A stretch of DNA of 63,702 bases, filler included, from Parasitella parasitica NRRL 2501 (Eukaryota; Fungi; Mucoromycota), in NCBI GenBank assembly GCA_025201805.1. It is 8 parts of 8 records of this genome, joined end to end, with 100 filler letters (N's around TTAATTAATTAA, not from the genome) between each part and the next. Parts side by side here need not be neighbours in the genome. Positions count along the whole stretch, not along the records: positions 62,449 to 63,702 come from MU619657.1; 7 more parts are not named here. One strand, 5' to 3'. A program made the translations under genes and the position numbers. Positions 14,419 through 63,702 of this stretch are shown here, one piece after another. The notes under the pieces were generated by a model. The model did not search any database, was not told the DNA's origin, and was given only the letters and a program-made list of their open reading frames with translations. How positions within the stretch are numbered: position 1 is the first letter of the stretch; the number at the start of each line of letters is the position of its first letter.

Positions 14419-14518
14419 NNNNNNNNNNNNNNNNNNNNNNNNNNNNNNNNNNNNNNNNNNNNTTAATTAATTAANNNNNNNNNNNNNNNNNNNNNNNNNN
14501 NNNNNNNNNNNNNNNNNN
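14419..14518. other. Artificial contig linker (N44-TTAATTAATTAA-N44). Also at 34463-34562, 42882-42981, 47238-47337, 57308-57407, 59067-59166 and 62349-62448
   Basis: Identical 100-bp structure seven times, with stop codons in all six frames. Confidence 0.97.
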
Positions 14519-34462: not shown

Positions 34463-34881
34463 NNNNNNNNNNNNNNNNNNNNNNNNNNNNNNNNNNNNNN
34501 NNNNNNTTAATTAATTAANNNNNNNNNNNNNNNNNNNNNNNNNNNNNNNNNNNNNNNNNNNNGGTAAGATAATGGTCCAATAATTAACTCTGATTCGTCT
34601 AAAATAGTTTCTTTTTTATCTGAAAATAATTATTTTGTTTTCCAAAATAGGTAAGCTATTTGTCTAATTATTAATTTCAATTCGTCCAGAAAAAAATTAA
34701 CATCGTCTGAATTTAAAGTAGAAAAACTGTATTTTGTGTTTTTTTAACGGCCGATGAACATTCAGCAATTGCAAACAAACATTGTCCACGTAGATCCAGC
34801 TGGCGCAGAAGACTTTATTTTTAAAGAAAACGAGGAATTAACTCTATACGCAAGGCTTTAAAAGCATAAATTTTTATTCTT

Positions 34882-42881: not shown

Positions 42882-43573
42882 NNNNNNNNNNNNNNNNNNN
42901 NNNNNNNNNNNNNNNNNNNNNNNNNTTAATTAATTAANNNNNNNNNNNNNNNNNNNNNNNNNNNNNNNNNNNNNNNNNNNNAAAACATTGATGAGGTGAG
43001 CCATCTAGATTTTTTCAATGGTTATGATTTCCTAATGTAGTTTATCATAATAGATTGTCGAAGAAGAGACAATCCAAAATAAAAAATATCAAGTAATTAA
43101 AGATTTCGAAGGCCTCTCTGTTGACACTGAACACAACGTCATTTCCAATAATAGCGAAAATGAGGTACTACACCAACTTATAATATGACTGAGTTAGCAA
43201 CCTGGTACATTGTTAATTTTAGGCTGACAAGGTGTTGTCGACAACCAAGCTGAATTAATAAATGAAGGTGATCGATTAGAGAATAACGAAGAAGCAATAG
43301 TCGATGAGCTTACTGAAGAGCAATTTCACTTAATTGAAAATCAAATCTCGGAGATTCCTGAAAATGGATGGCTTGACAAGTATCTTGGGTCAATTCAAGA
43401 GAGCTCAAAGGTGGTGCCGAACCTGATGAATACAAGAAGGGTACACTATGGATTAATTCTTCTAATGCATCTCTCGTATTAAAGAGAAAATTGGATCCTG
43501 AATTGCTTTACCTGGCTAGAGTATGCATATGACTTCCGCAATTTCCGGCCAAGACGCCCTTAAAATGCCCAAC

Positions 43574-44536: not shown

Positions 44537-47500
44537 CCAACTTGTCAAAAGTCCTTTCTCGCTAAAGAATGGGTACAAAAGACAAAGGCTAGAAGAATCA
44601 TCGATTTGGAAGAGTAAGTCAAACAAATATATATTTACAATTTTAATTTAAAACTTCTACTACTAGATGCATTGACGAATGTCTTTTTTAGCTGCTTCTA
44701 TCTTTTAAGTGTTAGATTCAAATGTACCAACAAGACAAACGTACATACATACTTTCATGGGATATCGATTTGAAATCATAAAAAAATTGCCTGCGCATGT
44801 TCGAGCTGATTTCCCCGCTGTGTTGACACATCGCTCCGGGTTTTCTACACAGCTCGTGAGATTGTTGCGCCCAGAGTTCCAAAACGCAACTGGCACACAT
44901 AGAATGCACCAAATTTGAAGGATAAACCATACAGAAAGATTTGATACAATTCAGTTCCAGTACTATGATGCTGTAAAAGACAAGCTATTAGAGAACAATT
45001 CAAGGCCAAAGCATTAATCGGCAACTCATCACCCGCAACAGTATATCCGAAATTATCATCATTTGGTGACAAGAATGGGTATTATGGATATGTACCTTCA
45101 GCAAATTATTTAAGTCATGTATACTGCTCTATTATAGCCGAACTAAGATCTTACATGGACCAGCATGCTTCATTTAGACGGTGTCGTCCTAATAAAAGAA
45201 GACCATTCTTTTAAGGTATGCTATATTGTACATCACACATAAAATTGCGGTACTCAATTTTTGAACTATAGATCATTGATCATATGGCCAAAATAAATGG
45301 CGTATCTACGTTTTCCTGTCTCTACACTGTATTGAACGAGCATCAAGAAATTCGTCTTCAAGTGCTCGCGCCCACTAAATCGTTGGATCATCTGGCCTAT
45401 TCTTTTAACAATATGATGGAAAGCTACACCAGATATGGATTTCAGATGCCTGAGGTTTTTTACACAGACAATGTGATTGGAGATAGATTGTTCCTGGAGT
45501 CTGCTATCCCTTCATTAAAAAAGGATGTTGTCCATACCAAGCCCACTCTTGCGGAACAGATCAATACAAATTGCCCATCCCAGAATTTTCCTTTGGCTGA
45601 ATTACCTGGTAATATTGCTGTTTCTGTGTTAGATACGAGTGATGCTATAAACCATGCTTGTCAGAAGCTTCTCGATTTTTGTTTTAGGGCAGTATTGCAA
45701 TTGGATTTGACTGCGAGTGGGCTGTTCGAGGAGGAAGGTCTGCTGTGCCTATAAGTGAACAAGCAAGACTAAGATTTGTGCCTGTTGCTTTAGTTCAAAT
45801 TGCTTACCAAGATTTAATCTATTTAATGAGGATACATACATTTGATCATGACAAGCTACCAAAACAATTAAGTGAACTGATTGTCAACCCGAAGATTCTT
45901 AAAATTGGAAAGAATGTAAACGGCGATCTTTCAAGGTTCAAGTACTTTGGTATTAATTACTTTCCCGGTCAATTGAAGCTCGGTACCTTTTGCAAGGATA
46001 AGAACCTAATTGAAAGAAGAGGCTCTTCACTTGCTGAGATTTGTGGGTTTGTTTTGAAAGTACAATTGCCCAAAACAAATTTGATTCGCTGCGGTAACTG
46101 GGAGGCACAGGCTCTAAATGAGGAACAAATCAATTATGCTGCTCTGGACGCCTGGGTCTCTTTAGAAATCTACAACAGGTTCAAATCAATGCCTACAGTC
46201 CACCAAAAGGTATCGGGAAAAACAAGAGCTGGCTCCTTTGTCGCAGTTCATCTTGAAAATACTGCTAAATCATCAGTTGCTGCCTTGGGATTTCTATGTG
46301 ACAATGATTCATCAATTTCTGATGAACAATACGAAGCAGCTGATACGCACGGCGCTGTAAAGATGAAGGTAGTCAAGACTATGATTCCTGGTTTTCCGTT
46401 GGATTGTTATGATGGTTTGACCTTGAGTGATTTTACTGGTAATCCATGCACCATGTACATCAAATACAAGTATTTATTTACGGCGTCAGAAAGGGTTTAT
46501 TACTCTGCAACCAAACCAGTCGAACCTACCCAACCTGCCATAACTATTCACAATTCAGATGAAGAAACGCCAATTCCTTCCCGTGTTTTGAAAGATGGCT
46601 TCCATTTAATGGACATGATCAAAATCTCCAAGTCCCATGGAATGCATAAAGATTTTATGAGACGCTTCCGTGATGCCTTATATGTTTGCGATCAAGGTGA
46701 CAAAGCTCTCATCGAAACATTTTTATTGAGCACAGGGACCGACTGGAACACACGGATGCTGTCTAACCCTGCTTGGGTTTTTGAACGAGTCAGAAGATTT
46801 ATACCAAAACCAGCCAAGCTCTAACCCACTCTGAAATTCTTATTTGATAGCTACGGCCCATTAAGATGTGAGCATTCTGGCCGCCAGCTTTTTGATGATG
46901 CAGCTAGGGAAATGTCTTTATATATTCTTAAATCTGTAAAAGAAGGGCATGTTTCTGATATCGTTGGTGGTCCTGCTCTCTACACGGAAAAAGGCCTGGA
47001 TAAGGACGGTTTGATGACCTACAAGTGTTCGCGAGTAACTAGTTCTGTTGAGGGAGCCTGTCATATGAACATTGTTTGCAGGTCGCATCATATAATGCAT
47101 CTACGCAATTAACAGATTCTATTTTGGCTGACTATAGACTATATCATAATATAAACGTAAGTGAATTATCTTTTAGTATGTTTTTTAATTTAAAAACTTT
47201 ACTTTTTTTCTTAGGTCGGGTCTGTTAATCGGTATGGNNNNNNNNNNNNNNNNNNNNNNNNNNNNNNNNNNNNNNNNNNNNTTAATTAATTAANNNNNNN
47301 NNNNNNNNNNNNNNNNNNNNNNNNNNNNNNNNNNNNNATATTTGCTCATAACTTGTGCTAAAATCACCCTAGAACCGAGATCTAACTTGGAAAACTTAGC
47401 ATTGACTTGGCCCTATTTGGAAACAACATTGGTATCCTTGATTTTATTGACATCTATAAAGTTATCAGATGATATCACAAATTTACATATCAGAATTGCA

Positions 47501-49017
47501 TATAATCGATGATAGGCTTCAACAAAGAACAGAATAAACAATGTCTTATGCGCCATAAGAACAGGCATGATCATCGCTATTTGAGCATAACTTAATTTTG
47601 CTTGGGCGACCTGTTTATCAAAAGTTATCCGCAAAAAAATACTTTCGCGTTTTTGTTGTCGGAGTTTGAAATATTTTTATATCACGTGATTGTTTTCATG
47701 CCGGGCCGGGTTCAAAGGATGTAATTTTTGGGATGTTTACTGCAAGAATGCTTTTTTCGACAACCAAATACTAACTGGTAAGCTTGAAGATGCAAGGTTT
47801 GGAGGATTATTGTTAATCTTCATCAATCCTAAAAGTATATATCTCAGCTATCATCATCATTATAAACAGATCTAATGAGTAGTAAAATATGAGATCATGT
47901 AATACATATATTTTATTACGGACGATTAATCAAATGTGATGTATCAATTCTAAAACCGGATGTCAATATAATATAAACTCATAATAAAGAGTAAAACATC
48001 AGATCATAAAATGATATTACATGACATTTGGGATAGATACAATCTACCTTATCTCCTGGATCTCATCACTAAAACCTTTATCCTCACATTGCTTCCCTCA
48101 GTTCATAGAAAGTATATAAACCTCTATTTTTGAATGTAATAAACGGATCTTTACCTGATTAAGTTCTATTGAACTTTTCTGATAAATCAATATGATAAAT
48201 AGCATCGTTTCATTGCAATCATGCACAAAACCACTTTTCATTTTCGTAATTTCAAACATTTGCTCATAACTTATGTTAAAGAATCGGAAAGCCGTGATCG
48301 AACCTGATAAACATTGCGAGAACTCAGCGCGGTGGAATAGAAGCATCTCTATCCGTGAAAATAAAGGTTATCAACAGAACTGATAAAGTGATAAAGACCA
48401 CTAGTTTAACACTAGGGACAAACTAATAATGCTTTTAATCGATAGGAAGTTGCCTATTAAGTAGAATAAATTTTGTCAATGAAGATTAAAACACAGTATT
48501 AGTCAGAGCAAGACCTATTTACCGTATATTTGATCAGGTAATAATCATGAATTTAAATCTTTTGTTAATAAGTTCAGTTTCATAATTTGGAATAAATAGA
48601 ATCCAATTAGATGGTTTCTTATTCAAAATAAAATTCTACATATTATAGAATTACGGGCAATACTTATCCTTAGATCTGACCAGGAACAGCCACGACACTG
48701 AGTTAAAATAATGGTAACCATTGTATTCTATGGAAACAACAGCCACCCGATCTTATTAAATTTAAATAACAATGCCTTCCAAGAAAAACAACCTTTTCGA
48801 ATAAAATTTTTGTTTCTTGAGACAGCTCATATTATCAATAATCTCGCAATCCCTAATTCGTCTCAACTTCATTTGCGAAGTATAGTATATACGGGACTTG
48901 GTCCATAACTTGATCGTATTGAGACTGTATTTGGTGATGCTTGTGACCACTACCAAGCGTCAAAAGAAGAAGAAAAAATATTGCATTTCATTTCCTATCA
49001 CTTGACACTACAAAAAC

Positions 49018-51235
49018 ATGAAGAGAGTTGTAGATTTTCAAGAAAGTGACCCTGCAAATGAAGCAGAATGGCAATTTAAAGACACCAAGACTGAAAATAA
49101 AAAACGAAAGCACAACAAAAAGAATGAAAAATTCAATGCAAAAACCGAGCGTCTTAGCCATGCCGATTTCATAAAAAAAAAAGAAGAGATGTTGGCTTTT
49201 AGAAAACAATTGCCAATCTATGCAGGTAAGGAAAAAATTTTCTTTCATGCTAGTGGATCTAATAATTCATATGCTGTGTTAGGTTGTGATGCTATTATCC
49301 AATGTTTAGAAGAGAACGATACTATCATTGTGATGGGAGAGACCGGATCTGGTAAAACCACTCGTAAGTGCATTGAATGTGTGTTTTACTTGCACGGTTC
49401 TCAAAGAGCTAACGCATGTTTCAGAGATCCCACAGTTTTTAGTAGAAGCAGGGTTAGCATCTAAAGACCTGGGTGGTGTCGCAGTAACCCAGCCTCGTCG
49501 AGTGGCCGCTGTCAATTTAGCCAAGCGTGTAGCGGAGGAAACCATGACAAAATTAGGATCCAAGGTTGGATACACAGTGCGTTTTGACGATACTTCGAGC
49601 CCACAAACCATCATCAAATATCTCACCGATGGTATGCTTCTCAGAGAGATTTTATCAGACGAACTATTGTTGCGTTATAAGGTTATCGTTTTGGATGAAG
49701 CGCACGAGCGCACACTACGAACCGACATGTTATTTGGTATGATTAAAAAGATCCAAAAGATTCGATCAGAAAAGCACGTAGAAGACAAATCAATTCAGCT
49801 TTTAAAAATTGTCATTATGAGCGCAACATTGGATGCCGAAAAGTTTAGTGGATTTTTCAACAATGCAAAGATCCTGTATGTGTCGGGTCGTCTATACCCT
49901 GTGGATACCATGTTTACCGTCGAACCACAAGCAGATTACTTGGACGCCTGTCTGGTGAGCATTTTCCAAATACACATCAATAATCCCAAGGGCGATATTT
50001 TAGTGTTTTTGCCTGGCCAAGATGCTATTGAAAGTTTGACGGCTTTAGTCAGTGAGTATTCTGCTCAATTGCGTCCTCAGCAACAACAACTATTGGCATG
50101 TCCATTATTCGCAGCTCTCCCGCCATCACAGCAACAAAAAGTATTTGACCCTGCTCCTGAAAATACTCGCAAAGTCATCCTGTCGACAAATATCGCAGAG
50201 ACCAGTATCACCATTCCAGGTATCAAGTATGTCATTGATTGTGGGCTTGCCAAGCTTCGAGGATTTAATCCGAAAATCGGTGTTGAGTCATTGCTGCTGC
50301 ATCCGATTTCTAAAAGTTCTGCATGGCAGCGCACAGGTCGTGCTGGTAGAGAAGCCGCGGGAGTGTGCTATCGCCTGTATACTGAGGGAGCATTTAGAGA
50401 GCTCGAAGACGACACTGTACCAGAAATTCGTAGATGCAATTTAGCATCCGCAGTTTTATCACTGAAAGCAACCGGCATCGATAACATCTTGGAGTTCGAT
50501 TACATGGATCGCCCTTCAAGAGCATCGCTAGTACGTGCATTAGAAGAGCTGTATGCCCTGGGTGCTATAGACGACAAGGGCGATCTTTCTGAATTGGGCA
50601 AACAGATGGCTGAATTTCCGCTTGATCCTACTTATTCCAAAGTGCTGATTCAGTCCAAAGAATATGGCTGTTCTTTAGAAGTTATTGCCATCATTTCACT
50701 ATTATCTGTAGATTCTATCTTTTTCACACCATCTGATAAGCGTGAACAAGCTTCCGAGGCCAGAAAAAAGTTCCTACATCCAGATGGCGATCACCTAACG
50801 CTTTTAAACGTGCTCAAGTCGTATTGGGAAGTCAAGGGTGATATCGAATGGTGCAAGGAGAATTTCATCAATAATAGAAATATTAGAATTGCTTTGGAAA
50901 TTCGGGATCAACTGGTGCGTTTTTGCGAACGAATTGACATGAATCACAACAGTTCATGTGGGTCGGATACAGACAGGGTCCTCAAGTGCTTTTTGACTGG
51001 ATTCTTTCAGAACACTGCCTTGTTACAGCCAGATGGATCTTACAAAAGTGTTGCAGGCAGCCAATTAGTGAAAATTCATCCAGGGTCTGCGATGTTTGGT
51101 AAACGTGTTGAAGGCATCTTGTATAACGAATTAGTGTTTACCACAAAGCATTATGTAAGAGGTGTTTCTGCTATACAGTCTGCTTGGCTGCCGTTGGCGG
51201 CACCCAAATATTTTAACAATGTAAAATCAAAATAA
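49018..51235 (+). CDS. DHR2: DEAH-box RNA helicase Dhr2/DHX33-like
   Basis: GETGSGKTT, TQPRRVAA, DEAHER, MSAT, STNIAETSITI and QRTGRAGR, plus HA2/OB-type C-terminus. Confidence 0.88.
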
Positions 51236-51510
51236 AGCTTTTATGCATGACATGTATTTCAATTGAACAATGATGGACAATGGCCGTCAGTCAACGCTGA
51301 TATTTACCAATGCTACTGACAGTGTTTACTTGAAGCCTGTTCTGCAACCTTTCGGGATAGCAACATTGACGAAATGCGTATTTATAATAACGCTTACATA
51401 GTTCTAGCAATCAAGTAATATGCACACCATTTTCTCAAGTAAACAGGCAAAAAAAAAGTCCCTTTACTTTTTTTTTCCCTAGCTTTTTTTTCCCTCTACA
51501 TGAATCAAAA

Positions 51511-52840
51511 ATGCAAAATAACCAAATACCACCCCATTTAATGCAACAGTATCAACAGCAACAGCAGACACCGCAACGAGTTTTTCATCCTCAGGTTGCT
51601 TATCCCATCATGTCAAATATTATGCCCTCAGAAAGAACGCAAGGGGTATTTTCTACCTATCCTGCACGGCTCAAGCTTTCAGATGACAATGCACTGTTGC
51701 TGCCAGAATCCTACGTTACTAAAAAGACGCGTTTTAGAGGGAATGAGTCAGAAGATGAATTTGATCAAATGATGGAAGAATCTGATGATGACGATGAAGA
51801 CAAGGATGAAGAGCGCAATGATTCTAAAAAAGGTAGTGGCGATAACAAAAATGTAACGAGCATTGCAACAACTTCAACAGCAGCAGTAGCGGCAATACCG
51901 CCAGTAGCAGCTCCTCCTCCTCCAGCAGAATGGCCCAAAGTAATCCGTCGAAAGGGCGATACCTTCTATTCAAGTTTGGAATTGAGCAAGATATCAGAAA
52001 TCGAAGAGAATCTAGTGCCAATTCGACTAGACATCGACATTGATTCAATCAAGTTGAGAGATCGGTTTTTATGGAATTTAAATGAGCAGTATTTGACGCC
52101 TGACAAATTTGCTGTAATGCTATGCCAAGACCTTGATTTACCACAACTCAAGTTTATCCAGCCTATTGCTGATTCAATTCGTGCTCAAATTATAGATTTT
52201 GAAACGTACAGTCAAGCAAAATTACCACACGAGCATACGCGGGTTACTATCAATGCAAGTATATGGACATTGTCAAGGAAAAATTCTATCTAACATGACA
52301 ACCCCCTCCCCTCCCTACTTTTGTGATATATTTAGCTTGATTTACAAGTTGGTAAAGTGAATTATAGAGACCAATTCGAATGGGAATTGCAGAATGAAAA
52401 GACAAACGGGCCCGAAGTTTTTAGTCGTCAATTGGCATCTGAACTTGGCGTGGGAGGAGAGTATGTTGCTATTATATCGCATGCAATTCGAGAGCAGTTA
52501 TTGCTGCATAAAAAACAATATGTCGATGAGGTTTGTTGGTTGCTTTTTCTGTCACAGTCCAGAATACTCAATGTTTAATGCATTTAGTTTATGATGGACG
52601 CCGAGATCCGAACACGTCTCGATAACGGATTTAGATCTATTCAGGATGCTAAAAAATGGGCTCCTCGTATGGATATGCTGTCAAATGATGAATTAGAGAA
52701 ATTGCTGATAGCTCAGGAAAGAAATATTAGGTTAGTAGAGCATAACTATCGCTGTTTCCTTTGCTGATTTTTTTCTGCTTCTTAGACGTATGCGAAGAGA
52801 AACAAGATTCAAGAGACAAACCAGAGGTCGACAATCATGA
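51511..52840 (+). CDS. SFH1: SNF5-family chromatin remodeller subunit (Sfh1-like)
   Basis: STYPARLK, LVPIRLDID, LRDRFLWNLNE, YRDQFEW and QERNIRRMRR. Probable GC-AG intron at about 52255. Confidence 0.8.
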
Positions 52841-52920
52841 TTTTGAGGAGTACAACAGAGCGAGCCGTTCGTTTATTCATATATATATAAGATAATAAAG
52901 AAAAGATGTTAAATCGGTAT

Positions 52921-53168
52921 TTAATGGTGTTCGTCGTGATGATCATCTCCATGGTGATCCCAAGGATGTCTCCAACCCTATTTGAAACTGTGAGTATGCA
53001 CATGCTGATACCAAATGCTGATTTTACCAAAAGAACAGGGCCGTCTTGTTTAGCACGATACATCATCCAAAACCACATGGTGGCACCTAATGCCTTTCCA
53101 ACGAAACGGTGGGTAAATCCGGCAAAATGTGGGTGGAATCCTAAACCTCCTGCAGCAGAACCAGCCAT
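52921..53168 (-). CDS. Complex I accessory subunit NDUFB2 (AGGG)-like
   Basis: HRFVGKALGATMWFWMMYRAKQDGPVLL/GWRHPWDHH. Confidence 0.85.
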
Positions 53169-53784
53169 GATTGTATAATGTAGTTTTATTCAAGTTAGAG
53201 TGGGGTGATGGAAAGAGAGTAAAAAGAATATGTTGTTTTTCTTCGGAGTTGCAGATATTCTCCAGTTTGAACAATACATGGGGACCATCTTCTTGACTTG
53301 CGCATCATCAAATACCACAGTACATCTTCAACAGGGTTATTCCGGCTCGGCTTATCGGGGATCGCATCTGGAATAGGGGATCAAACAGCTGCCAAAGCTT
53401 TTGTAAAATCTTGAGGGACACAAGCACAAGATCCTCCTCTTCCAGCATCACTAAGAAGGTAATGTAATGTTTTATTTGTAGTGTAGAGAGATGCCCATCA
53501 ATCCATCCATCAAATTATCGATACCCAAGTAGACGATATATGATGCACTGATAGTCATATCGATTCAGTAGCCAAAAGTGTTTTGTTGCAACTTGCAGAG
53601 GTGGATTCTGATTTTGTTGTTAGACATAAACACCCGAAAATTTTAACATTACTGTCGACATGTTTTGCAGCATAAACATCAACAGATAGAAGTTGGATGT
53701 GTACTAGTGGCTATCTCTCTACAATATCAAGTGAGCTTGTTTATATTAAGCCTATTCTGTTTTTGTTCATATATAGCTTTAAAA

Positions 53785-54250
53785 ATGGTTACTCCTGCCG
53801 TAAAGCACACCATCGTGAAGAAGCGTACTGCTACCTTCAAGCGCCACCAATCTAACCGTTTCATGCGTGTCGGTGTAAGTAGTATACAAATTGATTGATT
53901 TGACCCTTAAAAAGCATGGCACTAAGGTTCAATTTGGCATGTAGGAATCTTGGAGAAAGCCCAAGGGTATCGATTGTAACATGCGTCGTCGCTTCAAGGG
54001 TCAAGCCCCTATGCCCAAGATTGGTTATGGTTCTGCCAAAAAGACTCGTGACCTCTTGCCCAACGGATTCCGCAAGTTCACCGTCTCCAACGTTCGTGAA
54101 CTCAACCTCTTGTTGATGCACAATCGCTCTTATGCTGCTGAGATTGCCCACAATGTCTCTTCCAAGAAGCGTGTTGCTCTCCTCGAGCGTGCTGCTCAAC
54201 TCAACGTTAAGGTCATCAACGCTGGTGCTCGTCTTAGATCCCAAGAGTAA
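53785..54250 (+). CDS. RPL32: 60S ribosomal protein eL32
   Basis: [28 protein letters not shown] and [11 protein letters not shown]. Confidence 0.95.
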
Positions 54251-54311
54251 AATATACAGCATCTTTCTTTATTATATAAAAATGACGCACAGTTTTTTTT
54301 TCGGGCTACAT

Positions 54312-55094
54312 CTAAAGTTCTCCACAGTTCGTAATAGTTATTGTTGTTTGGGGTTGTTCTTTAACCTGGGACACTTGATTTATCGCTGTCAAGACATCGA
54401 ATCCCTCAGTAACTTGGCCAAAAATGACGTATTTTCCGTTGATTTTGTCAAATTGAGCATGTTTGTCACTGAGTGTTATAAAAAATTGGGATGTGTTTGA
54501 GTTCTTGCCTGAATTGGCCATGGCGACTAATCCAGTTGCATTGAATTTTTTAGACAGACCTGGTTTTTCGTCGTTAAACTTGCCATTATAGATGCTGTCT
54601 CCGCCAGAGCCATCGCCTTTTGTACATGTTATTTATCTCGCAATGATCTTTATGATGATACTGCATAAATTACCTCGGGTAACATCGCCTCCTTGCACCA
54701 TAAAATCATTCACGAGTCGAAACATGCATGTATCCTGGTAGTGCAAAGGCTTTTTTGAGCTCTTTCCAATCCTACCTCCAGTGCAAAGCTGAACAAAGTT
54801 ATCGCTTGTCTTGGGACATTCTTTGTCGTTGAGCTCAATGACAATCTGACCACCTCTTAATGGTGTAGGCGCATCTACAATCCATCTCTCACTTGCTGCT
54901 GTTGGGTCGTTTGATAAAACATCGCGTAATGTTTCTTTATCCTCTGCTTCAAATTGATCAAGATCATCACTGGCAAACCCATATGTGCTCTGCCAGTGCT
55001 TCACCCACGATTTCGCGCTATTGTATCGCTTTAGAGTGTCTGTGTATGATGCGATATCCCCTATTTTTATCTCGAGAAATACTTTACGTGTCAT
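54312..55094 (-). CDS. Cyclophilin-type peptidyl-prolyl isomerase
   Basis: CPKTSDNFVQLCTG, FRLVNDFMVQGGD, GLVAMANSGKNSNTSQFFITL and YVIFGQV. Confidence 0.88.
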
Positions 55095-55718
55095 TTTCGC
55101 TTGTGAATATTTGAGACGAAGAGCAGTAATGCCAAAGTGCAAACTTTTCAACAGCTGGATCCGGCTGAATGTCAAATTATCATGGGTTAATGTTTAATAT
55201 AGAGTGCTTGCCTAACGTCTGTGTATGCACCAGGTTCTACGTTAACCACTTTTATTCACTCGCAGTTGCTTAAGCTAGTGAAATCTAGAGTTTATTTTAA
55301 CAGATCTGACAGCAGTTCCATATAAGAATGATCCAAAAAAGCTAATTCTACACACTCGTGAGCATCTAGATAGTGACTAACTGGATCTCGATGTTTCCTC
55401 AAATTAACTTGGTGCTATGATCATTCCTATGATAAGTCTCGCTCTCATTTGTTCTTGATCCTCATTCATGTTTTATGATACATGACCTCTAGTTACAGCT
55501 TTTAGTTTTGAAAAGTTTAGTTTACATAATGGCCAATGATGTACGATTCTCCGTACGGGGACAGATGTATATGGATGATGGTGCTCAACCAAAAAGAGGA
55601 ATGGCCATAGTGACGTAGAAATTTCAGTTGTTTTAGCACTCACTGTAGTGCTTGTATATACCCTCAGCTTTTTCTACTTTTTTCCAGAGATTTGAGGGGG
55701 GGCAATATAACAAAAATA

Positions 55719-56945
55719 ATGCACTATACAGTCAAATCACTAGTTGTTTCTTGCCAAGATACATTGACGAAATACTTGGATGGTAAATTTGAGGAAGGCC
55801 TTTAACCATACACATTTTATGCTAATCTCCAGTGAATAGTTGTTTCTGAAGTTGGCTGCGTTCCATATTCACTATTGAAAAGCTCACTTGTTCACGCTAC
55901 ACCACAACAATTGTATAAAATTGAAAAAGCAAACCCAGTGAGTCTATAAGTTTGTAAAGAAAAAGGAAAAACTATACGACATTAACATTTCTTTTTCTAT
56001 TCGTCAAGGACATTGCTGCAGAATCAGATGGTAAAAACAAACCATCAGCCCAAAGTTTAGAAATACTAACATTTTGATTTGAAGAATTATGGCTCAAGCA
56101 CTGCCTAACGTATAAAGACATTCGAGACGATTATTACGAACATGGTTTATACCGTGAACCCAAGAAATGGCGAGAATTATATCTGGTAGGTCTCGAACCA
56201 GCAGAAAAAGCATTGTCTCACACAGAGTTCACACATGTAGAACCGCTTTAAAGAGAACGAGAAAAAACGACAATTAATCAAACAAAAAGTGAAAAGTCAG
56301 TACAACAAGATTCAAAACGAAAAAGAAAAGAGATCCATCAAAGTATTACATAGTGTTGTTCCATCTTCTAGTAAACGTTCGTATGAATCTGCCCGTAAGT
56401 TCATTCTGTATGAATCGCAAATGAAGTCCTTTCGTTCTCACTTATAAACACATAAATTTTCAATGTTAGGACGATCAACAATGAGCAAATTATTCCAGCA
56501 AACAAAAAAAGAGACTGATAAAGTGTAAGTAGTATAGCAATAAATTGATTAACTAATTGACTCGCTAAAGTAATCCCTTTATATGTATAGTGCATCGATT
56601 TATCATCAAAAGCGACCTACTTCAACATTTCGTACACAGTTACCCTCATCATCAACTATTATCAGAGTTCCCAAACGACCATCTCAATTAACTCAGGCTT
56701 ATCAAGCCTATCAATCAAAATACCCAAGGCTCCGCTCACCTCCATCACCTGCTCCATTAATTGCACCTAGACCACGGACATTTGTTTCTGAAGATTGGAA
56801 ATCCAAAAAGCAAAGACAAAACGAAAACAAAAAGAGGCCAGCTGCGTTGGTCAATTTTAACAAATTTAAAGAGGTTTGTACATCTAGAGTATACTCTAAA
56901 TTCAAATACAAAGTTGCTAATACAAACATAATACAGCTATCTTGA
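55719..56945 (+). CDS. Elongin A (Ela1)-like protein, multi-exon
   Basis: Manual splice: MHYTVKSLVVSCQDTL, VGCVPYSLLKSSLVHATPQQLYKIEKANP and ELWLKHC..WRELYL. Confidence 0.75.
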
Positions 56946-57181
56946 AAGGAAAGAAAAAAGGGAGAAGGAGAGACGGATTGAAATCTCCCGAGGGAAAGAC
57001 ACTACCTCTCCTGATCTGTATTATTACAGTACTCGATCAACTCTAATTATGTGCAGGTTTCAATCAAGGAGGATATTTTGTTTTTGATTTGCGAGAGATA
57101 AAGAAGAAGATAATGATACAATGGGTTTGAACTGTATTTCTTGATAACAGGCTCCGTATACAAGGTTGGGGTCTCATCCGA

Positions 57182-57307
57182 CTAGATTTTTTTTTTGGTT
57201 TCGGAGAGCGTAGCTCTCCGAAACCAAAAAAACAACGCATTAATTTGAACTATCGATTATGGTAGGCAAATGCATCATATGTAACCAGCTTTCGAGAGCT
57301 ATTATGA
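57182..57307 (-). mobile_element. Helitron 3' terminus
   Basis: Perfect hairpin ggtttcggagagc-tac-gctctccgaaacc, then 11 nt, then CTAG|T on the minus strand. Confidence 0.7.
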
Positions 57308-57431
57308 NNNNNNNNNNNNNNNNNNNNNNNNNNNNNNNNNNNNNNNNNNNNTTAATTAATTAANNNNNNNNNNNNNNNNNNNNNNNNNNNNNNNNNNNNN
57401 NNNNNNNTATTTGAACATAAACAATGAGCAT

Positions 57432-57741
57432 TGACGTGTCAATTTCCCAACCGGAAGTCAAACTCAAGTAAACTCAATCCTGAACACAATTCAGGAACAT
57501 ATCCCAATGGATCATGTTCCTTATTTATAACTCAACATGACATGTTCATGGATAATAGATACGATCTATATCGTTCCATTCTCTAAATCACACCATGTCT
57601 CACACTTGTATCTTATCCTCCCATCAGTCCACTTAGATTCACTAGTATATAAACCATCATTTTTTCCATCTAATAAACGAGATCTTGACCTGATTAACTC
57701 ACAACCGTTTTATTTGAATAATTTCTCATTCTGATAAATCA
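57432..57741 (+). mobile_element. LTR family B, uninterrupted copy
   Basis: TGACG...AATCA. Reverse complement of 43574-43776 joined to 44432-44536. Confidence 0.85.
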
Positions 57742-57859
57742 ATGTACTTCAATGGAATATTGAAAATGGTCCAATGATGCGATATGATACGCTTGGTAAA
57801 TTGGAGAATAAAGTCTCTGTTTCAAATCAAAAAGGTCACTACTCTAGGATTAGCTAGTA

Positions 57860-58830
57860 GGTATTTACCCAAGACATCATCGCAAAGTTTCTGAAGTGAC
57901 CATTGCTTTAATGAGTCTGTGTGGCCCATTTCCATATATCTACTTCTTCCCAGATCAAGAAAAGCTTTTGGGTGATATCAAGTTTTGTCAACATGGTAAT
58001 CAGCTTCAAGTTTCTGCAAATCTTGTTTGATACAACGTCCCACTTTAATGACATTGGTATCTTCAATCAAGAGCTTCAGCTGACCTGGCATTTGATAGGT
58101 ATTACCAAGATGAAATAGGTATACAGATGTTTTGAATGCAATTTGTATCAATAATGTTTTCTGCCTGAACGAAGCTTTGTTGATATATTTTGTTGTCCAC
58201 TCGCAATCAAAGCCTATGTGTATCGGTATAATGCGACCACTGACATCTGCATTCAAGCAATTAATTAATCTTGAGGCCATCGTATTAATTTGTACAGCAG
58301 ATTGCGGTATATAATGGAACATTATCAGGAAGTGTATAAGCTGGAAGAAGGCCTGAATTGACTCCAAGCTCCTCGTTGGTATGCTGGACGTTTTCTTTCA
58401 ATGATGAAATCCATCGTTCCAGACTTGGCTGATCAGCCACGATATTACCTCAGTGTAGAAAATACGAGGTTTTTCTTCCTCGTTTTTCAAATAAGTCTTC
58501 ATCATCTCTACAGAGCGTTCTTCCAAATGCAGTAGGGACTTTGTTGGGCCAAGAACCATCATAAAAATCTCCTCAAATTCGTTACAAACGGTTCAAAGAG
58601 TTTTGAATATGGAGACACCTTTAAGTTTTGCTATTTTTTTTAATAATTTTGAAGGTGTGATCTCCTTTTGACACAACACCGCCAAGCTTCATCATTTTTG
58701 AATCAATTTTTGCCTTCAGATTTTCCATATATACAAAGTATACACATAACCAATATACACAGCTGAAGGCACACGGCCAGAGTATCCCTTTGAATCTTCA
58801 AATTCTAAAAAATCAGCTGCTGCTTTATAT
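57860..58830 (-). pseudogene. Second, diverged copy of the exonuclease-containing transposase
   Basis: GYSGRVPSA, KGDHTFKIIK, TVCNEFEEI..GPTKSL, IFYT, IHIGFDCEW, LIQIA and KVGRCIKQD. Confidence 0.7.
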
Positions 58831-59177
58831 GTGCAATAAAATTGGGATCAATTTTATGTGAAAATAAAAAAAATAAAAAAAACAAGACATCAGCATTTAA
58901 AATACAAACATTATGATAGCTATATTACTTCACAGACGCTTTGTATGATTTGTTTTATTGAATTCTACCAAAAAGCAAAAGGTCGGGATTATATTATACC
59001 ATGGATATGAGTTTAAGAAGCAATTATTTATAAAGTGTAGTGTGCCCTGGCGGGCGGCCTGGTTTTNNNNNNNNNNNNNNNNNNNNNNNNNNNNNNNNNN
59101 NNNNNNNNNNTTAATTAATTAANNNNNNNNNNNNNNNNNNNNNNNNNNNNNNNNNNNNNNNNNNNNAACAAACTATT

Positions 59178-59477
59178 TGATATGTTACATCAGCTCATAT
59201 TCTTGGATCAATCTCAACAATGAAACATATCAAACCAATTGACAACGATAACACGGTGTATTTTCTATTCGTTCATCAACAGTGACAACATACTATCACA
59301 TTAATCTATTGGTTATTACAGCTACCATCTCAGTTGTAGTAAATAATTGAAGATATAAATACCCTGTATTTATATCATAATAAACGATATACTTCTTTTA
59401 TTGTTCGGATACAGTTGAAAGCTGTGAATTATTACAAGTCTCTTTTTATTGTATTGAAATATCTGAAATATACATCA
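59178..59477 (+). repeat. 5' LTR of Ty3/gypsy element
   Basis: TGAT...ATCA termini, TATAAAT and AATAAA inside, homolog at 34172, directly upstream of gag. Confidence 0.7.
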
Positions 59478-59562
59478 TTTTTTTTTCACAAGTCAAATCT
59501 TCTGGAATCCTTACCTCTATTTACTACCTCTATTGTTCTCTCTTTTTGTGCTATTTTCTAAA

Positions 59563-62348
59563 ATGAATCCTGTTAACCCTTCTGCTACTGCTTCTGGTTC
59601 CAACGCTGCTGCTGGACCTTCTTCTGTTACTTCTGCTGGTTCTTCTAACCATTCTGGTAAACAATCTGTTTCTGCTCTTTCTTCTGGTGCTCCTGTTGAT
59701 ATTGGTGGTGCTGATGTGACTCCCGAGTCGTCTACTGCTATGGATATCGATAGCCATCCATTTTCGTCAATTGGAAGTACTGTTGACCCCGACCGTCAAT
59801 TACTTCAATTGAAAGAAAACCTGAACCAGCTTATGGTTCAAGTGACGCTTGCCTCTGCAAAGGTTTCTGCTACAAATGGTGCTGCCCGGCAGTCTGCTGT
59901 TTGTGAGTTGGAATCCTTGTCCAAGTCTGTGGAGAAACTGGTCGTTGTGAGAGACTGTTTGTTGGCATCTAATGCTACTGAACGTCGTCTTAGACCTTCT
60001 CCTGCTAGCTCTGCTAGTGTAGTCTGCCCCAACAATTTGCCTGTGTTTCAATGGGAAGGTGCTGTCTTTGATGCAAAGAGTACCGTTTTCGTTGATGTTG
60101 ATGCTTGTCTGACCAAGTTCGAGGATGTCATGTTTGCATACAACCTGAATTTTGATGCCGAGTATCGTCGTCTGGTTCCGCCTATGCTGTCACCTACTCA
60201 GCGTACGTGGTATCAGTCATTTTTGGCAAATTGTAAGGAGTCTACGTCTTGGATTGCATTCAAAAGTGCCTTCAAGGCTCGTTACGGGTTGAGTGTTCTC
60301 GATGACCGCCAACGTTGTGCATCTGACTTGATGGCAATGGTCTTGGTGCCTGGTGAGTCGATTGAATCGTTCGTTGATCGATTCAATGATTTGCGTCGTC
60401 GATCGCACGATCAAGTCCCGCAGTCTTTCTTGTTGGTAACTCGTTTTATGAATGCTTTGCCGCCCAGTCTTAAAGAAAAGGTGAACCTTACCCGCCATAG
60501 TCGTGGGATTAATGAGGACATTTCAGTAGATAAGATCATTCAGATCACCCGTGATCTTGTTGGATCTATGTCGCCTGCTGAAGTGGCTGACATGATGGTC
60601 AGTAAGTTGTCGCCTCCTGCTGTTGTTTCTGGTTCTTCTGCCTCGAAATGGGCGTCTAAGCCTTTGTCAGAGAAGGCTATCCCGGTTCAAGGTGCTTCTT
60701 TGTCGCGAGTTTCTAAGGCTGTTTCAAAGAAGAAAACCTGCAAGTATCATGAGGGCCGCCCACACAATCATGACACATCTGAATGCAAGAGTTTTCAAGG
60801 CAATGCTCGTGTTGCTGCTGGTAATGCTGCTCCCAAGGGTGATAAGGCGCAATACATTATGTCGCTAAAGGAAGCCCGTGAAACCGATCGTTGCCGCACC
60901 TGTGGGTGGAATAACTTCTCACGTGGCCCCCATGATTGTCCTGGCGCTAGTACGACTGCTGTGCGTACTGGTCCTCCTCCATCTAGCTCTTTGCATCGTT
61001 TTGGTATGATGGATTTGGTTCCTGGTTCTTCTGCTGCTGGTAGTGATGCTACATCGTCTACCCCCGAAACAGGTCGCTACTGTGATTTCCATGGTCGCAA
61101 TACGCATGGCAATCAAGATTGCAAGGTTCTGCAAAAAGTCTCTGCTATGGGCTTCACGCGTGCTGCTTCTTCTTCTTCTTCTTCTGCTTCTTCTTCTGCT
61201 GCTCCATCAGCAACATCTGGTCTTCCCTTGGAAGCTTCTCAGGCTGACTCTGCTGCTGCTACGTTGAATGACAATATCGACAAGTTGAGTGTGCATGATG
61301 ACGCCATGGATATTGACCAGATGGTTGCTATAGAAGCACAAAAATGTAAGATTAATGAATATTCGAATTTGCCTGTTAACAAATCAAACTCACTTCTGAT
61401 ACCCTTAATTGTAGAACAAGTCAAGGTGTATGGTGTTCTTGATACTGGGTGTACTTTTTCCATTTGTGCGCCGCAGTTTGCTGAATCTTTAGGTGTAGCA
61501 ATCAACTATGCTGTGGATGGTAATGTTCAATTGGGACATACGTCTACTTTGCAACCTAGAATTGGCACTTGTTATTTAAAAGTTTTTTACAATAAAAGAT
61601 CTTTTACTCACAAATTCGAGATATTTGATTTCTTTACTGAATCCAATGATTGTCCAATTTTGCTTGGTCTTGACATTATGTCTGATTTGAAAATTGGAAT
61701 CACTGGCTTGACATCATCATGGTTTGAGTACACGGGACCTGAACTGCCGTCTCCTATTGACCCTGATTGTGAGCCTAACAATGATCCCTATGGCACTCCA
61801 TTTGAGCGTGAACAAGCTTTTAAGCCTATTGAAGCGTTGTTAAAAGAAAATGCTGCCATTGATCTTGCGTCGACTTACTGCAATCTTCCAGGCGCGATTG
61901 TTAAGCTGGAAACGATCCCTGGTAAGATTGCTTATCGAGCTCCATATCCAGTTCCTGTTGTCTATAAGGATGCTGTCTTGGCTCAACTTGCTCAATGGGA
62001 AAAAGAGGGTGTTATTGAGCCTAGTCCTAGTCACAATGGTTGGAATCATCCTCTGCTTGTGGTTGCCAAGAAGAATAGTGCAGGTGAATACTCGTTTGAC
62101 AAACCTCGTATTGTTGCCGATGTACGTCTTCTCAACCAGATTTTAGTGAGTACTGATCGCTATCAAATGCCGCGCATTGATGAGATTCACCAAAAGTTCA
62201 GTGCTGCTACTATCACAAGTTGCATTGATGTAAAGAGTTTTTTTACATCGTTTTTAGTCGATTTTAAACACCGCTACAAGTTATCAGTAACTTGTCCGTT
62301 TACTGGCAAGCAATGGTGTTTCCGGAAAATATGTTTTGGTGTTTTTTT
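59563..62348 (+). mobile_element. Ty3/gypsy Gag-protease-RT single ORF, truncated by contig end
   Basis: Gag (WIAFKSAFKARY, ESIESFVDRF), zinc knuckles, protease VLDTGCTFS, RT start (GVIEPS..WNHP, PRIVADVRLLN, IDVKSFF). Confidence 0.92.
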
Positions 62349-62448
62349 NNNNNNNNNNNNNNNNNNNNNNNNNNNNNNNNNNNNNNNNNNNNTTAATTAA
62401 TTAANNNNNNNNNNNNNNNNNNNNNNNNNNNNNNNNNNNNNNNNNNNN

Positions 62449-63702
62449 TCCATGCCCAGTTCCAAAACCAAGACATCATAAGTTTGAATACCATCATTTG
62501 CTGGGATTTATCAAACTTGGAGAAGTCATTCTCGAGGAAAACTCGGCGGGACGTAGCTTTGTCGTATACATTTAAGTGATCCTGTATATCGGACATAGAT
62601 TTGGATGTGTTGAACATAACATTCGGTCAAACAAGGCGCAATAAACAGGTGAGAAAACCATATTGTTCTCTTTGCTATGGTAAACAACCGTTTAAGAAGC
62701 GGTGTACTGCTTGGCAGCAGCGAGTTCCATCTTGGGTTTAGCTTCGGCCTTCACGAATGCATCATACACATCGAGGACAGTTTCTGCATCGGTAAACTTC
62801 GAATTTTCGATGCGACGGATCTGTGCTTCAGAGAGTCGGTTTATACGTTCAACTATGTCTTCTTCGTTAATGGTGACGGGATGTTTGCGGAACTCGGCAG
62901 TCATCTCTTGAGCCTCCGGTATACAGAAGTTCTTGTAAGCACGACCTAGGGTTTGACGCCACACAACGGCGAAATCTTGTGCCGTCTCTAGAGGGGGAAC
63001 GTTGCACTGTCTTTTCTGAAACGCGATAAGGATCTCCCGGGTTGTCTGTTGACGTTTAAGTCCACATGCGGTGACTGTAGGCGCAGCAGTCGGGGTGTGA
63101 GGTAAACCAAGGAATCGCGGTTTCAAGGTCGAACGTGCAGTACTGGCATATGGTTCGACTACCGGGGGATGAAATGCGCGGGTAGTGTTGCACTGGACGG
63201 GCATATAAGACACTGGGTCGTCAATAGCGTCTTTTAGAAGATGCTCGGTAGAGATCGCGTCGCAACCCTCATTGTGTAGTGTATGATCGATAGAGGAACC
63301 TGCACTTTTAGGTGAGTCTCGAATAATACACCCATCACAACGCGTAGTTTCGTAGCAAATGTAACCGTAACGTCTCTCGAGGACCACCGGGGGTGAGGCG
63401 TTCGTAGGTTTCACGTCAACAGGTCGGACGGTCTGCGGCTGCTTGGAATCTCTTCTGGGCGGTTTGAAGACGATTCCTTTGGGTCGATTCACTACCGTAG
63501 TGTCAGAAACAGGTGTTACATCTGCAACAGCGGTGGGACCGACAGTTGGGGGTGTGACACCGTGGGTTATTTCGACGTCAACGTTTTCGGGCGAGACTCT
63601 CATCGGTTCAGCAGATTCAGGTTGGGCAGGAGTCGTCGGTAGCGACTGGGAAGAATCTTGAGAGGAGACGGAACCTTCGCGAGAATGGTAAGAGGGGGGG
63701 GG
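62449..63702 (-). pseudogene. Endogenous viral element: RdRp of a virga/tobamo-like (Martellivirales) (+)RNA virus
   Basis: RQQTTREILIAFQKRQCNVPPL, VKAEAKPKM...YTAS*TVVYHSKENNMVFSP and motif A FLENDFSKFDKSQ. One premature stop and frameshifts. Confidence 0.9.

What the first reader, a model, noticed from the sequence alone, without database searches (positions are those of the whole stretch)
62449..63702. Fossil RNA-virus polymerase (virga/tobamo-like RdRp) in fungal DNA
Seen: the minus strand encodes, in order, TACGLKRQQTTREILIAFQKRQCNVP, KAEAKPKM..YTAS*TVVYHSKENNMVFSPVY and FLENDFSKFDKSQ. The segment has no introns and is visibly more GC-rich than the host genes. An in-frame TAA at 62692-62694 sits where CAA (Gln) is expected, and frameshifts occur at about 62620 and 62480. 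Known: these motifs are collinear with the RdRP_2 domain of Martellivirales (e.g. tobamovirus QTIVYHSK and DISKYDKSQ), and such viruses have no DNA stage. Inference: a non-retroviral endogenous viral element decaying in the genome. It records a probably undescribed Mucorales virus lineage and could be a small-RNA antiviral template.
Basis: partly seen in the sequence, partly recalled or inferred. Interest (0 to 1): 0.85.

Follow-up and report, generated by a model that had tools for sequence, protein, structure and literature searches.

The report
Broken RNA-virus polymerase in fungal DNA
A broken piece of an RNA-virus polymerase gene is present in this fungus's DNA at two to three times the depth of ordinary genes, and is likely a recent, duplicated chromosomal fossil of an undescribed segmented fungal virus, a kind of element already reported in related fungi.

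Summary
The RdRp is real: Pfam RdRP_2 at E 8e-22 and 8e-7 in two frames. The stop and frame breaks are in DNA: 4 of 4 DNA runs laid carry the stretch in one 3-kb contig with no differences. In 2 of them its depth is about 3x and 2x that of host genes from this window, so it is probably multi-copy. Its nearest relative is an unnamed virus at 37% identity. It groups with helicase-free polymerase segments of segmented virga-like (vivivirus-like) viruses, not with single-polyprotein tobamo-like ones. A conserved block in front of the RdRp core is missing. The main gap: the piece lies between an artificial 100-base spacer and the window end, so no host junction was seen, and the neighbouring Ty3/gypsy element is not shown to be adjacent. 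Virga-like RdRp sequences in a Mucorales genome were already proposed as endogenised (PMC11351042). No small-RNA evidence. Verdict: a new member of a known kind.

The parts
63073..63702 (-). 210 stop-free codons in frame with the RdRp; P/S/T/V-rich, probably the variable spacer of the viral polymerase segment. The conserved block that precedes the RdRp core in relatives is absent.
   Evidence: Open frame; GC 0.535, CpG o/e 1.20, GC3 0.47, like the RdRp part and unlike 6 host ORFs with GC3 0.29-0.41; block profile scores 0.4 bits here against 26-87 bits in 17 of 17 relatives; no significant match to any relative. Viral origin is inferred.
62623..63072 (-). N-terminal part of the RdRP_2 core (model positions 35 to about 185), interrupted by one stop
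   Evidence: Pfam E 8.1e-22; 37% identity over 160 aa to P0003
62692..62694 (-). In-frame stop codon inside a conserved stretch of the RdRp
   Evidence: no other letter in 4 of 4 DNA runs laid
62620..62626 (-). Frame break with about six codons missing relative to relatives
   Evidence: no gap against 4 of 4 DNA runs
62465..62626 (-). RdRp continuation in a second frame, including motif A (model positions 189-230)
   Evidence: Pfam E 7.7e-7; 50% identity over 60 aa to P0003
62449..62464 (-). Probable second frame break, then three residues that fit the family profile in a third frame; the piece ends here
   Evidence: Column scores; weak, three residues only
62349..62448 (.). Artificial 100-base spacer (44 N, a 12-base six-frame stop, 44 N): the boundary of the piece, not biology
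   Evidence: Seven identical spacers in the window

Best explanation
This is a disabled DNA copy of part of an RNA-virus polymerase gene, likely reverse-transcribed from the polymerase segment of a segmented virga-like (vivivirus-like) fungal virus, likely integrated in a chromosome fairly recently and likely duplicated to two or three copies. Shown: RdRp homology; stop and frame breaks in DNA; presence in the same DNA runs as this window's host genes; depth 2-3x. Inferred: copying by a host retroelement reverse transcriptase (such viruses have no DNA stage, established knowledge), chromosomal integration, young age, and duplication. It cannot make a working polymerase from this frame; at most a truncated product of about 303 aa (63603-62695) that lacks motifs A-C. 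Most likely it is a neutral, decaying passenger.
For: RdRP_2 in two collinear frames. 20 of the top 20 search hits carry RdRP_2. 6 of 16 listed runs, all marked DNA, from 5 studies, hold all sampled words. 4 of 4 laid runs carry the stretch in one contig of 2972-3004 bases with 0 other letters and 0 gaps. X3 and X5 also carry host contigs of 5839 and about 3220 bases identical to window 48133-57178, at depth 37-38.5 and 28.5-31.3, against 115.7 and 62.4 for the viral contig: about 3.0-3.1x and 2.0-2.2x. Quick tree of 102 rows: it falls in a 37-row clade (SH-aLRT 97) in which none of the other 36 rows has a helicase hit, 23 of them 1000 aa or longer. Careful tree of 33 rows: sister to P0003 at 96/93, helicase-free clade at 94/90. 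P0003, P0007 and P0008 are weak methyltransferase plus RdRp without helicase, the Mtr1-RdRP layout described in PMC12282112 (passages read). One stop in about 390 codons and no CpG loss (o/e 1.15 against 0.60-0.82 in the other seven pieces) point to a young insertion. A host Ty3/gypsy gag-protease-RT frame exists in the same assembly.
Against: No host-virus junction was seen: the piece is bounded by a spacer and the window end, and the 685 and about 1034 further bases of the run contigs could not be read. All 6 holder runs are flagged as possible sources of this DNA, and X3 and X5 are identical to the window in the host contigs, so they may be one strain or clone, not independent genomes. The tool warns that contig depth is no copy number; GC bias could add to the ratio, and host depth was measured in only 2 of 6 holders. 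Contigs drop minor variants, so copies are not shown to be identical. The tree rests on 196 residues, and no named vivivirus or RmVV1 sequence was in it. One host coding region (Sin3) also has CpG o/e 1.09, so CpG is a weak clock.
Confidence: 0.8

Rival explanations
1. A single-copy integrated fossil; the 2-3x depth comes from GC bias, an amplified chromosome segment or collapsed neighbours.
For: The piece is 12 GC points above the host mean; the tool cautions against reading depth as copy number; only one contig was laid per run.
Against: Ratios sit near whole numbers (about 3 and 2) and differ between two runs with identical host contigs; a short contig with the same ends in several runs is what a collapsed repeat gives.
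Confidence: 0.1
2. Extrachromosomal viral DNA (linear or circular, perhaps fused to a retrotransposon) that is carried along in the culture and not integrated.
For: No junction seen; depth ratio varies between runs; circular viral DNA made from defective genomes is described in insects (PMC5857290, abstract and section titles seen).
Against: The same disablements and near-integer depth in runs from 2019 to 2023 need stable inheritance; no replication origin or mechanism is known for such DNA in fungi (my knowledge).
Confidence: 0.05
3. A co-opted locus: the copies are transcribed and feed small RNAs against related viruses, or the 303-aa truncated frame is kept as a host gene.
For: Long open frame upstream of the stop; more than one copy; Mucor has canonical RNAi that silences retroelements (PMC7763443, passages read); transcribed, selected totivirus-derived genes exist in yeasts (PMC2805616, abstract read).
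Against: Three to four lesions within 625 bases; no protein from this frame was returned by two protein searches covering 206-2000 aa or by exact look-up; no orthologue to test selection.
Confidence: 0.1
4. Artefact: cDNA of a live virus, or a contaminant, assembled with errors.
For: Isolated short piece at the end of a spacer-joined scaffold; holders may share one source.
Against: Identical stop and frame breaks at depth 58-116 in 4 of 4 DNA runs from 4 studies; a replicating virus could not carry them as its only polymerase sequence.
Confidence: 0.03

Closest known systems
[quoted passage not shown]
   Same: Virga-like RdRp of a segmented virus found in a Mucorales-type DNA assembly; the authors propose endogenisation.
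   Different: Those were predicted proteins at 30-64% identity to RmVV1, with no analysis of lesions or copy number in the parts I read. I had neither sequence, so whether this piece is one of them, or of the same clade, is untested.
Proposed family Viviviridae and related segmented Martellivirales (viviviruses, vipoviruses, jiviviruses; PMC12282112 and PMC12169780, passages read)
   Same: Closest relatives have a degenerate methyltransferase, a long spacer and the RdRp on one segment of about 4 kb, without helicase.
   Different: Only 37% identical to its nearest relative, an unnamed sequence; a disabled DNA copy; conserved pre-RdRp block missing.
Non-retroviral integrated RNA virus sequences in fungi (totivirus-like, PMC2805616, abstract read; curvulavirus-like RdRp in Mucoromycota, PMC7482067 and PMC12548735, passages read)
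   Same: RNA-virus gene in fungal DNA, needing a host reverse transcriptase.
   Different: Those are other virus orders, often intact, expressed or conserved across species; this one is broken, looks young and appears multi-copy.
Virgaviridae and tobamo-like mycoviruses
   Same: RdRP_2 domain and motif order.
   Different: No helicase in front of the RdRp here; grouping with the helicase-bearing sister clade is rejected at p-AU 0.018 (group chosen after seeing the tree; no named tobamovirus included).

Membership tests
Non-retroviral endogenous viral element | Homology to a gene of an RNA virus with no DNA stage | tested here: met
   RdRP_2 E 8e-22 and 8e-7; 105 relatives at E<=0.001
Non-retroviral endogenous viral element | Present in the host's DNA at genome-like depth | tested here: met
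   4 of 4 DNA runs laid, one contig each, 0 differences; 2-3x host depth in the 2 runs compared. Runs may share one strain.
Non-retroviral endogenous viral element | Physical junction between viral and host chromosomal sequence | tested here: inconclusive
   Piece bounded by spacer and window end; run contigs extend 685 and about 1034 bases but could not be read; the 30 visible flank bases match nothing in the window or metagenome contigs
Non-retroviral endogenous viral element | Decay (stops, frame breaks) incompatible with a replicating virus | tested here: met
   One stop, one firm and one probable frame break, a missing conserved block
Non-retroviral endogenous viral element | Orthologous filled or empty site in related strains | not testable with these tools
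   No genome held.
Segmented virga-like viruses (proposed Viviviridae and allies), as donor | RdRp groups with helicase-free polymerase segments | tested here: met
   37-row clade SH-aLRT 97; 94/90 in the careful tree. Named members: Erysiphe necator associated virga-like virus 6, Hangzhou virga-like virus.
Segmented virga-like viruses (proposed Viviviridae and allies), as donor | RdRp falls inside the clade of named viviviruses or vipoviruses | tested here: inconclusive
   No sequence named vivivirus, vipovirus or RmVV1 was among the 20 hits looked up by name or the 8 rows
Segmented virga-like viruses (proposed Viviviridae and allies), as donor | Degenerate methyltransferase (Mtr1) at the start of the RdRp protein; further segments with Mtr2-helicase and capsid | not testable with these tools
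   Would lie outside the piece; 0 of 147 tblastn hits of the relatives fall elsewhere in the window
Virgaviridae / tobamo-like viruses, as donor | Methyltransferase-helicase-RdRp module with the helicase directly before the RdRp | tested here: not met
   630 bases upstream have no match to any relative, helicase-bearing ones included; p-AU 0.018 against the helicase-bearing clade

The most novel reading that the evidence does not exclude
A defective, internally deleted polymerase RNA of an unknown segmented mycovirus was reverse-transcribed, integrated and amplified into a small array whose copy number (2 or 3) still changes between near-identical isolates, and the array feeds the fungus's RNAi system as heritable antiviral memory: a fungal counterpart of defective-genome-derived viral DNA in insects.
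Probability: 0.08. Interest if true: 0.8.

Novelty: new member of a known kind. Interest (0 to 1): 0.38.

Why it matters
It records that a virus lineage known otherwise only from unnamed transcriptome contigs (nearest 37% identical) probably infected this fungal lineage, which gives a host to an orphan clade. The apparent 2-versus-3 copy difference between near-identical isolates makes it a handy locus for asking whether fungi, like insects, keep RNA-virus fragments as small-RNA templates. As a bare fossil it is ordinary: such elements are known in fungi, and virga-like ones have been flagged in Rhizopus.

Tried and rejected
Strain polymorphism: 10 of 16 listed runs with the same species or sample labels hold next to none of the words, but the 2 laid (X7, X10) also lack this window's host genes, so their blank says nothing. 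Capture by the neighbouring Ty3/gypsy element: not supported, the two pieces are separated by an artificial spacer, and the junction could not be examined. No RNA holder listed: no evidence on expression. Close relatives: none in viral contigs with the single protein or in metagenome contigs; the alignment found 24 distant viral loci, 23-40% identical in the best segment. Word-indexed protein searches gave 0 hits among longer proteins and 1 distant hit among similar-sized ones. PDB sequence search: 2 chance-level hits. A weak match of 63695-63606 to the pre-RdRp block (E 0.028) scored -1.1 bits with the profile: treated as chance. Rfam: 0 matches in 57408-63702. Repeats: no LTR or target-site duplication recognisable around the piece. 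Earlier findings of this scan: none in 3 look-ups. Atlas for host identity: uninformative or a lead only. No structure was predicted, since the sequence match already settles the fold. Supplements of PMC12548735 (2 files) had no Mucor or Rhizopus rows; the tree figure of PMC11351042 could not be seen and may bear on placement.

Full report
Observation. The minus strand of 63702-62449 holds the three motifs quoted, in order. One frame is open for 336 codons from the window end to a stop at 62694-62692; 0 of 1000 base shuffles reach 336 stop-free codons and 6 reach 210. Read through with X, it matches Pfam RdRP_2 positions 35-189 at E 8.1e-22, and a second frame from 62620 matches positions 189-230 at E 7.7e-7, including motif A. 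The first frame break lies at about 62626-62620, where the sequence is about six codons shorter than the 11 of 18 relatives my pattern matched. A second break is probable at about 62464-62459, not 62480, on the strength of three residues. GC is 0.495; 192 N-free host windows of the same size average 0.373 and reach at most 0.435.

The window is not one molecule. It is eight pieces joined by seven identical 100-base spacers of N with a six-frame stop. The finding is the whole last piece. So the window shows no host-virus junction, and the Ty3/gypsy gag-protease-RT frame at 59563-62346 (Retrotrans_gag E 4.6e-8; RVT_1 and protease below cut-off) is not shown to be its neighbour. No whole genome is held.

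Is it in DNA? 6 of 16 listed runs, all marked DNA (by guess) and from 5 studies, hold all sampled words; all 6 are flagged as possible sources. I laid 4 of the 6. Each has the whole stretch in one contig of 2972-3004 bases at depth 58-116, with 0 other letters and 0 gaps, running on 685 bases (717 in X6) past 62449 and about 1034 past the other end. The lesions are therefore not errors of this assembly. I then laid the host piece 47338-57307 on 2 holders and 2 non-holders. X3 and X5 carry it in contigs of 5839 and about 3220 bases with 0 differences, at depth 37-38.5 and 28.5-31.3. The viral contig is thus about 3.0-3.1x and 2.0-2.2x host depth. The tool warns that depth is no copy number, contigs drop minor variants, and these runs may be one clone, so this is an estimate. 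X7 and X10 lack the host genes too, so their lack of the viral piece shows no polymorphism.

Which virus? A full HMMER search gave 105 relatives at E<=0.001, the best (P0003, 1391 aa, on a 4336-base contig from a sequencing-run assembly) at 37%. 20 of the top 20 carry RdRP_2. The four near-complete best hits of 1230-1391 aa have no helicase, and three of them have a weak methyltransferase. This is the Mtr1-RdRP segment of segmented Martellivirales described in PMC12282112 (passages read). A quick tree of 101 of 112 fetched proteins (11 dropped for short coverage) plus the window's 196 residues puts it in a 37-row clade at SH-aLRT 97 whose other 36 rows have no helicase hit; 23 of them are 1000 aa or longer. 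A careful tree of 32 rows that I chose plus the window gives sisterhood with P0003 at 96/93 and the helicase-free clade at 94/90. Forcing it into the helicase-bearing sister clade is rejected at p-AU 0.018, with the caveat that I named that group after seeing the tree. Named members of its clade are Erysiphe necator associated virga-like virus 6 and Hangzhou virga-like virus. No named vivivirus, RmVV1 or tobamovirus was among the rows I could name, so family membership stays open.

Anatomy. Homology starts abruptly at 63072. All of the top 20 relatives match RdRP_2 from position 28 or earlier, and 17 of 17 tested have a conserved block of about 80 residues just before this point (26-87 bits, leave-one-out), which scores 0.4 bits at best in the six frames upstream. 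The 630 upstream bases are in frame, P/S/T/V-rich (0.45; P0003's spacer 0.40, five others 0.21-0.35) and virus-like in composition, but match no relative. I infer an internal deletion that joined spacer to core, either in a defective viral RNA or later in DNA. The run contigs hold 737 bases after motif A, and relatives need 678-684 to reach their stop, so the unseen part probably holds the rest of the RdRp; I could not read it.

Mechanism. Shown: a disabled RdRp in the same DNA as the host genes, at raised depth. Inferred: a host retroelement reverse transcriptase copied the polymerase segment, the copy integrated, decayed and was duplicated. One stop in about 390 codons and no CpG loss (o/e 1.15 against 0.60-0.82 in the other pieces) suggest a young insertion, though one host gene also reaches 1.09. 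I rate this 0.8; single copy with biased depth 0.1; co-option for small RNAs or a truncated protein 0.1 (not exclusive of integration); episomal DNA 0.05; artefact 0.03.

Host. Neighbouring pieces encode eukaryotic genes (Sin3, SNF5, SNF2, DEAH helicase, cyclophilin, TBC). The only taxonomic signal is an Atlas hit of 0.89 to a cluster that is mostly Mucoromycota, a lead only.

What is known. PMC11351042 (section 11 read, passages of the discussion and supplement) describes the seven-segment RmVV1, lists eleven R. arrhizus genomic proteins at 30-64% identity to its RdRp and proposes endogenisation. PMC7482067 and PMC12548735 (passages) report endogenous RdRps of another order in Mucoromycota. 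PMC2805616 (abstract) shows integrated totivirus genes in fungi. PMC5857290 (abstract, section titles) shows viral DNA made from defective genomes in insects. PMC7763443 (passages) covers RNAi against retroelements in Mucor. PMC12169780, PMC11625762 and PMC9603141 (passages) were read for vivivirus and jivivirus background. Nine paper searches listed no paper that I could tie to this locus or to a copy-number analysis of such an element in Mucorales; most listed papers were seen only as listings, and the library lacks most subscription journals.

Verdict. A real, disabled viral RdRp in fungal DNA, very probably an endogenous viral element from an undescribed segmented virga-like virus: a new member of a known kind. 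Interest 0.38. The raised, unequal depth and the missing block are the parts worth a follow-up.

Noticed in passing
window 14419-14518, 34463-34562, 42882-42981, 47238-47337, 57308-57407, 59067-59166, 62349-62448: Seven identical artificial 100-base spacers: gene neighbourhoods across them should not be trusted in any finding from this window.
   Followed up: yes
window 59563-62346 (+): Uninterrupted Ty3/gypsy-type gag-protease-RT frame of over 920 codons, cut off by the spacer at the start of the RT; looks young or intact.
   Followed up: partly
window 63694-63702: The terminal G run is one base shorter in 3 of 4 runs than in the window and X5; it may be a difference between copies or another frame break.
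   Followed up: no
window 47338-48660: Very high-copy short repeat family (hundreds of contigs laid, summed depth up to about 300,000 in X3 and X5), possibly a non-autonomous transposon.
   Followed up: no
window 45826-46824 (+) and 57978-58397 (-): A 3'-5' exonuclease frame (Pfam E 2.5e-13) and a second fragment that by eye resembles it; possibly parts of one transposon family.
   Followed up: no
runs X7, X10 against window 47338-57307: Runs with the same species label, and in one case the same sample code, as the holders lack this window's host genes, so those labels cover more than one species.
   Followed up: partly
window 63400-63310 (-): A small cysteine cluster in the upstream frame; P0003 has a cysteine-rich patch in its spacer too, but no significant alignment.
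   Followed up: no
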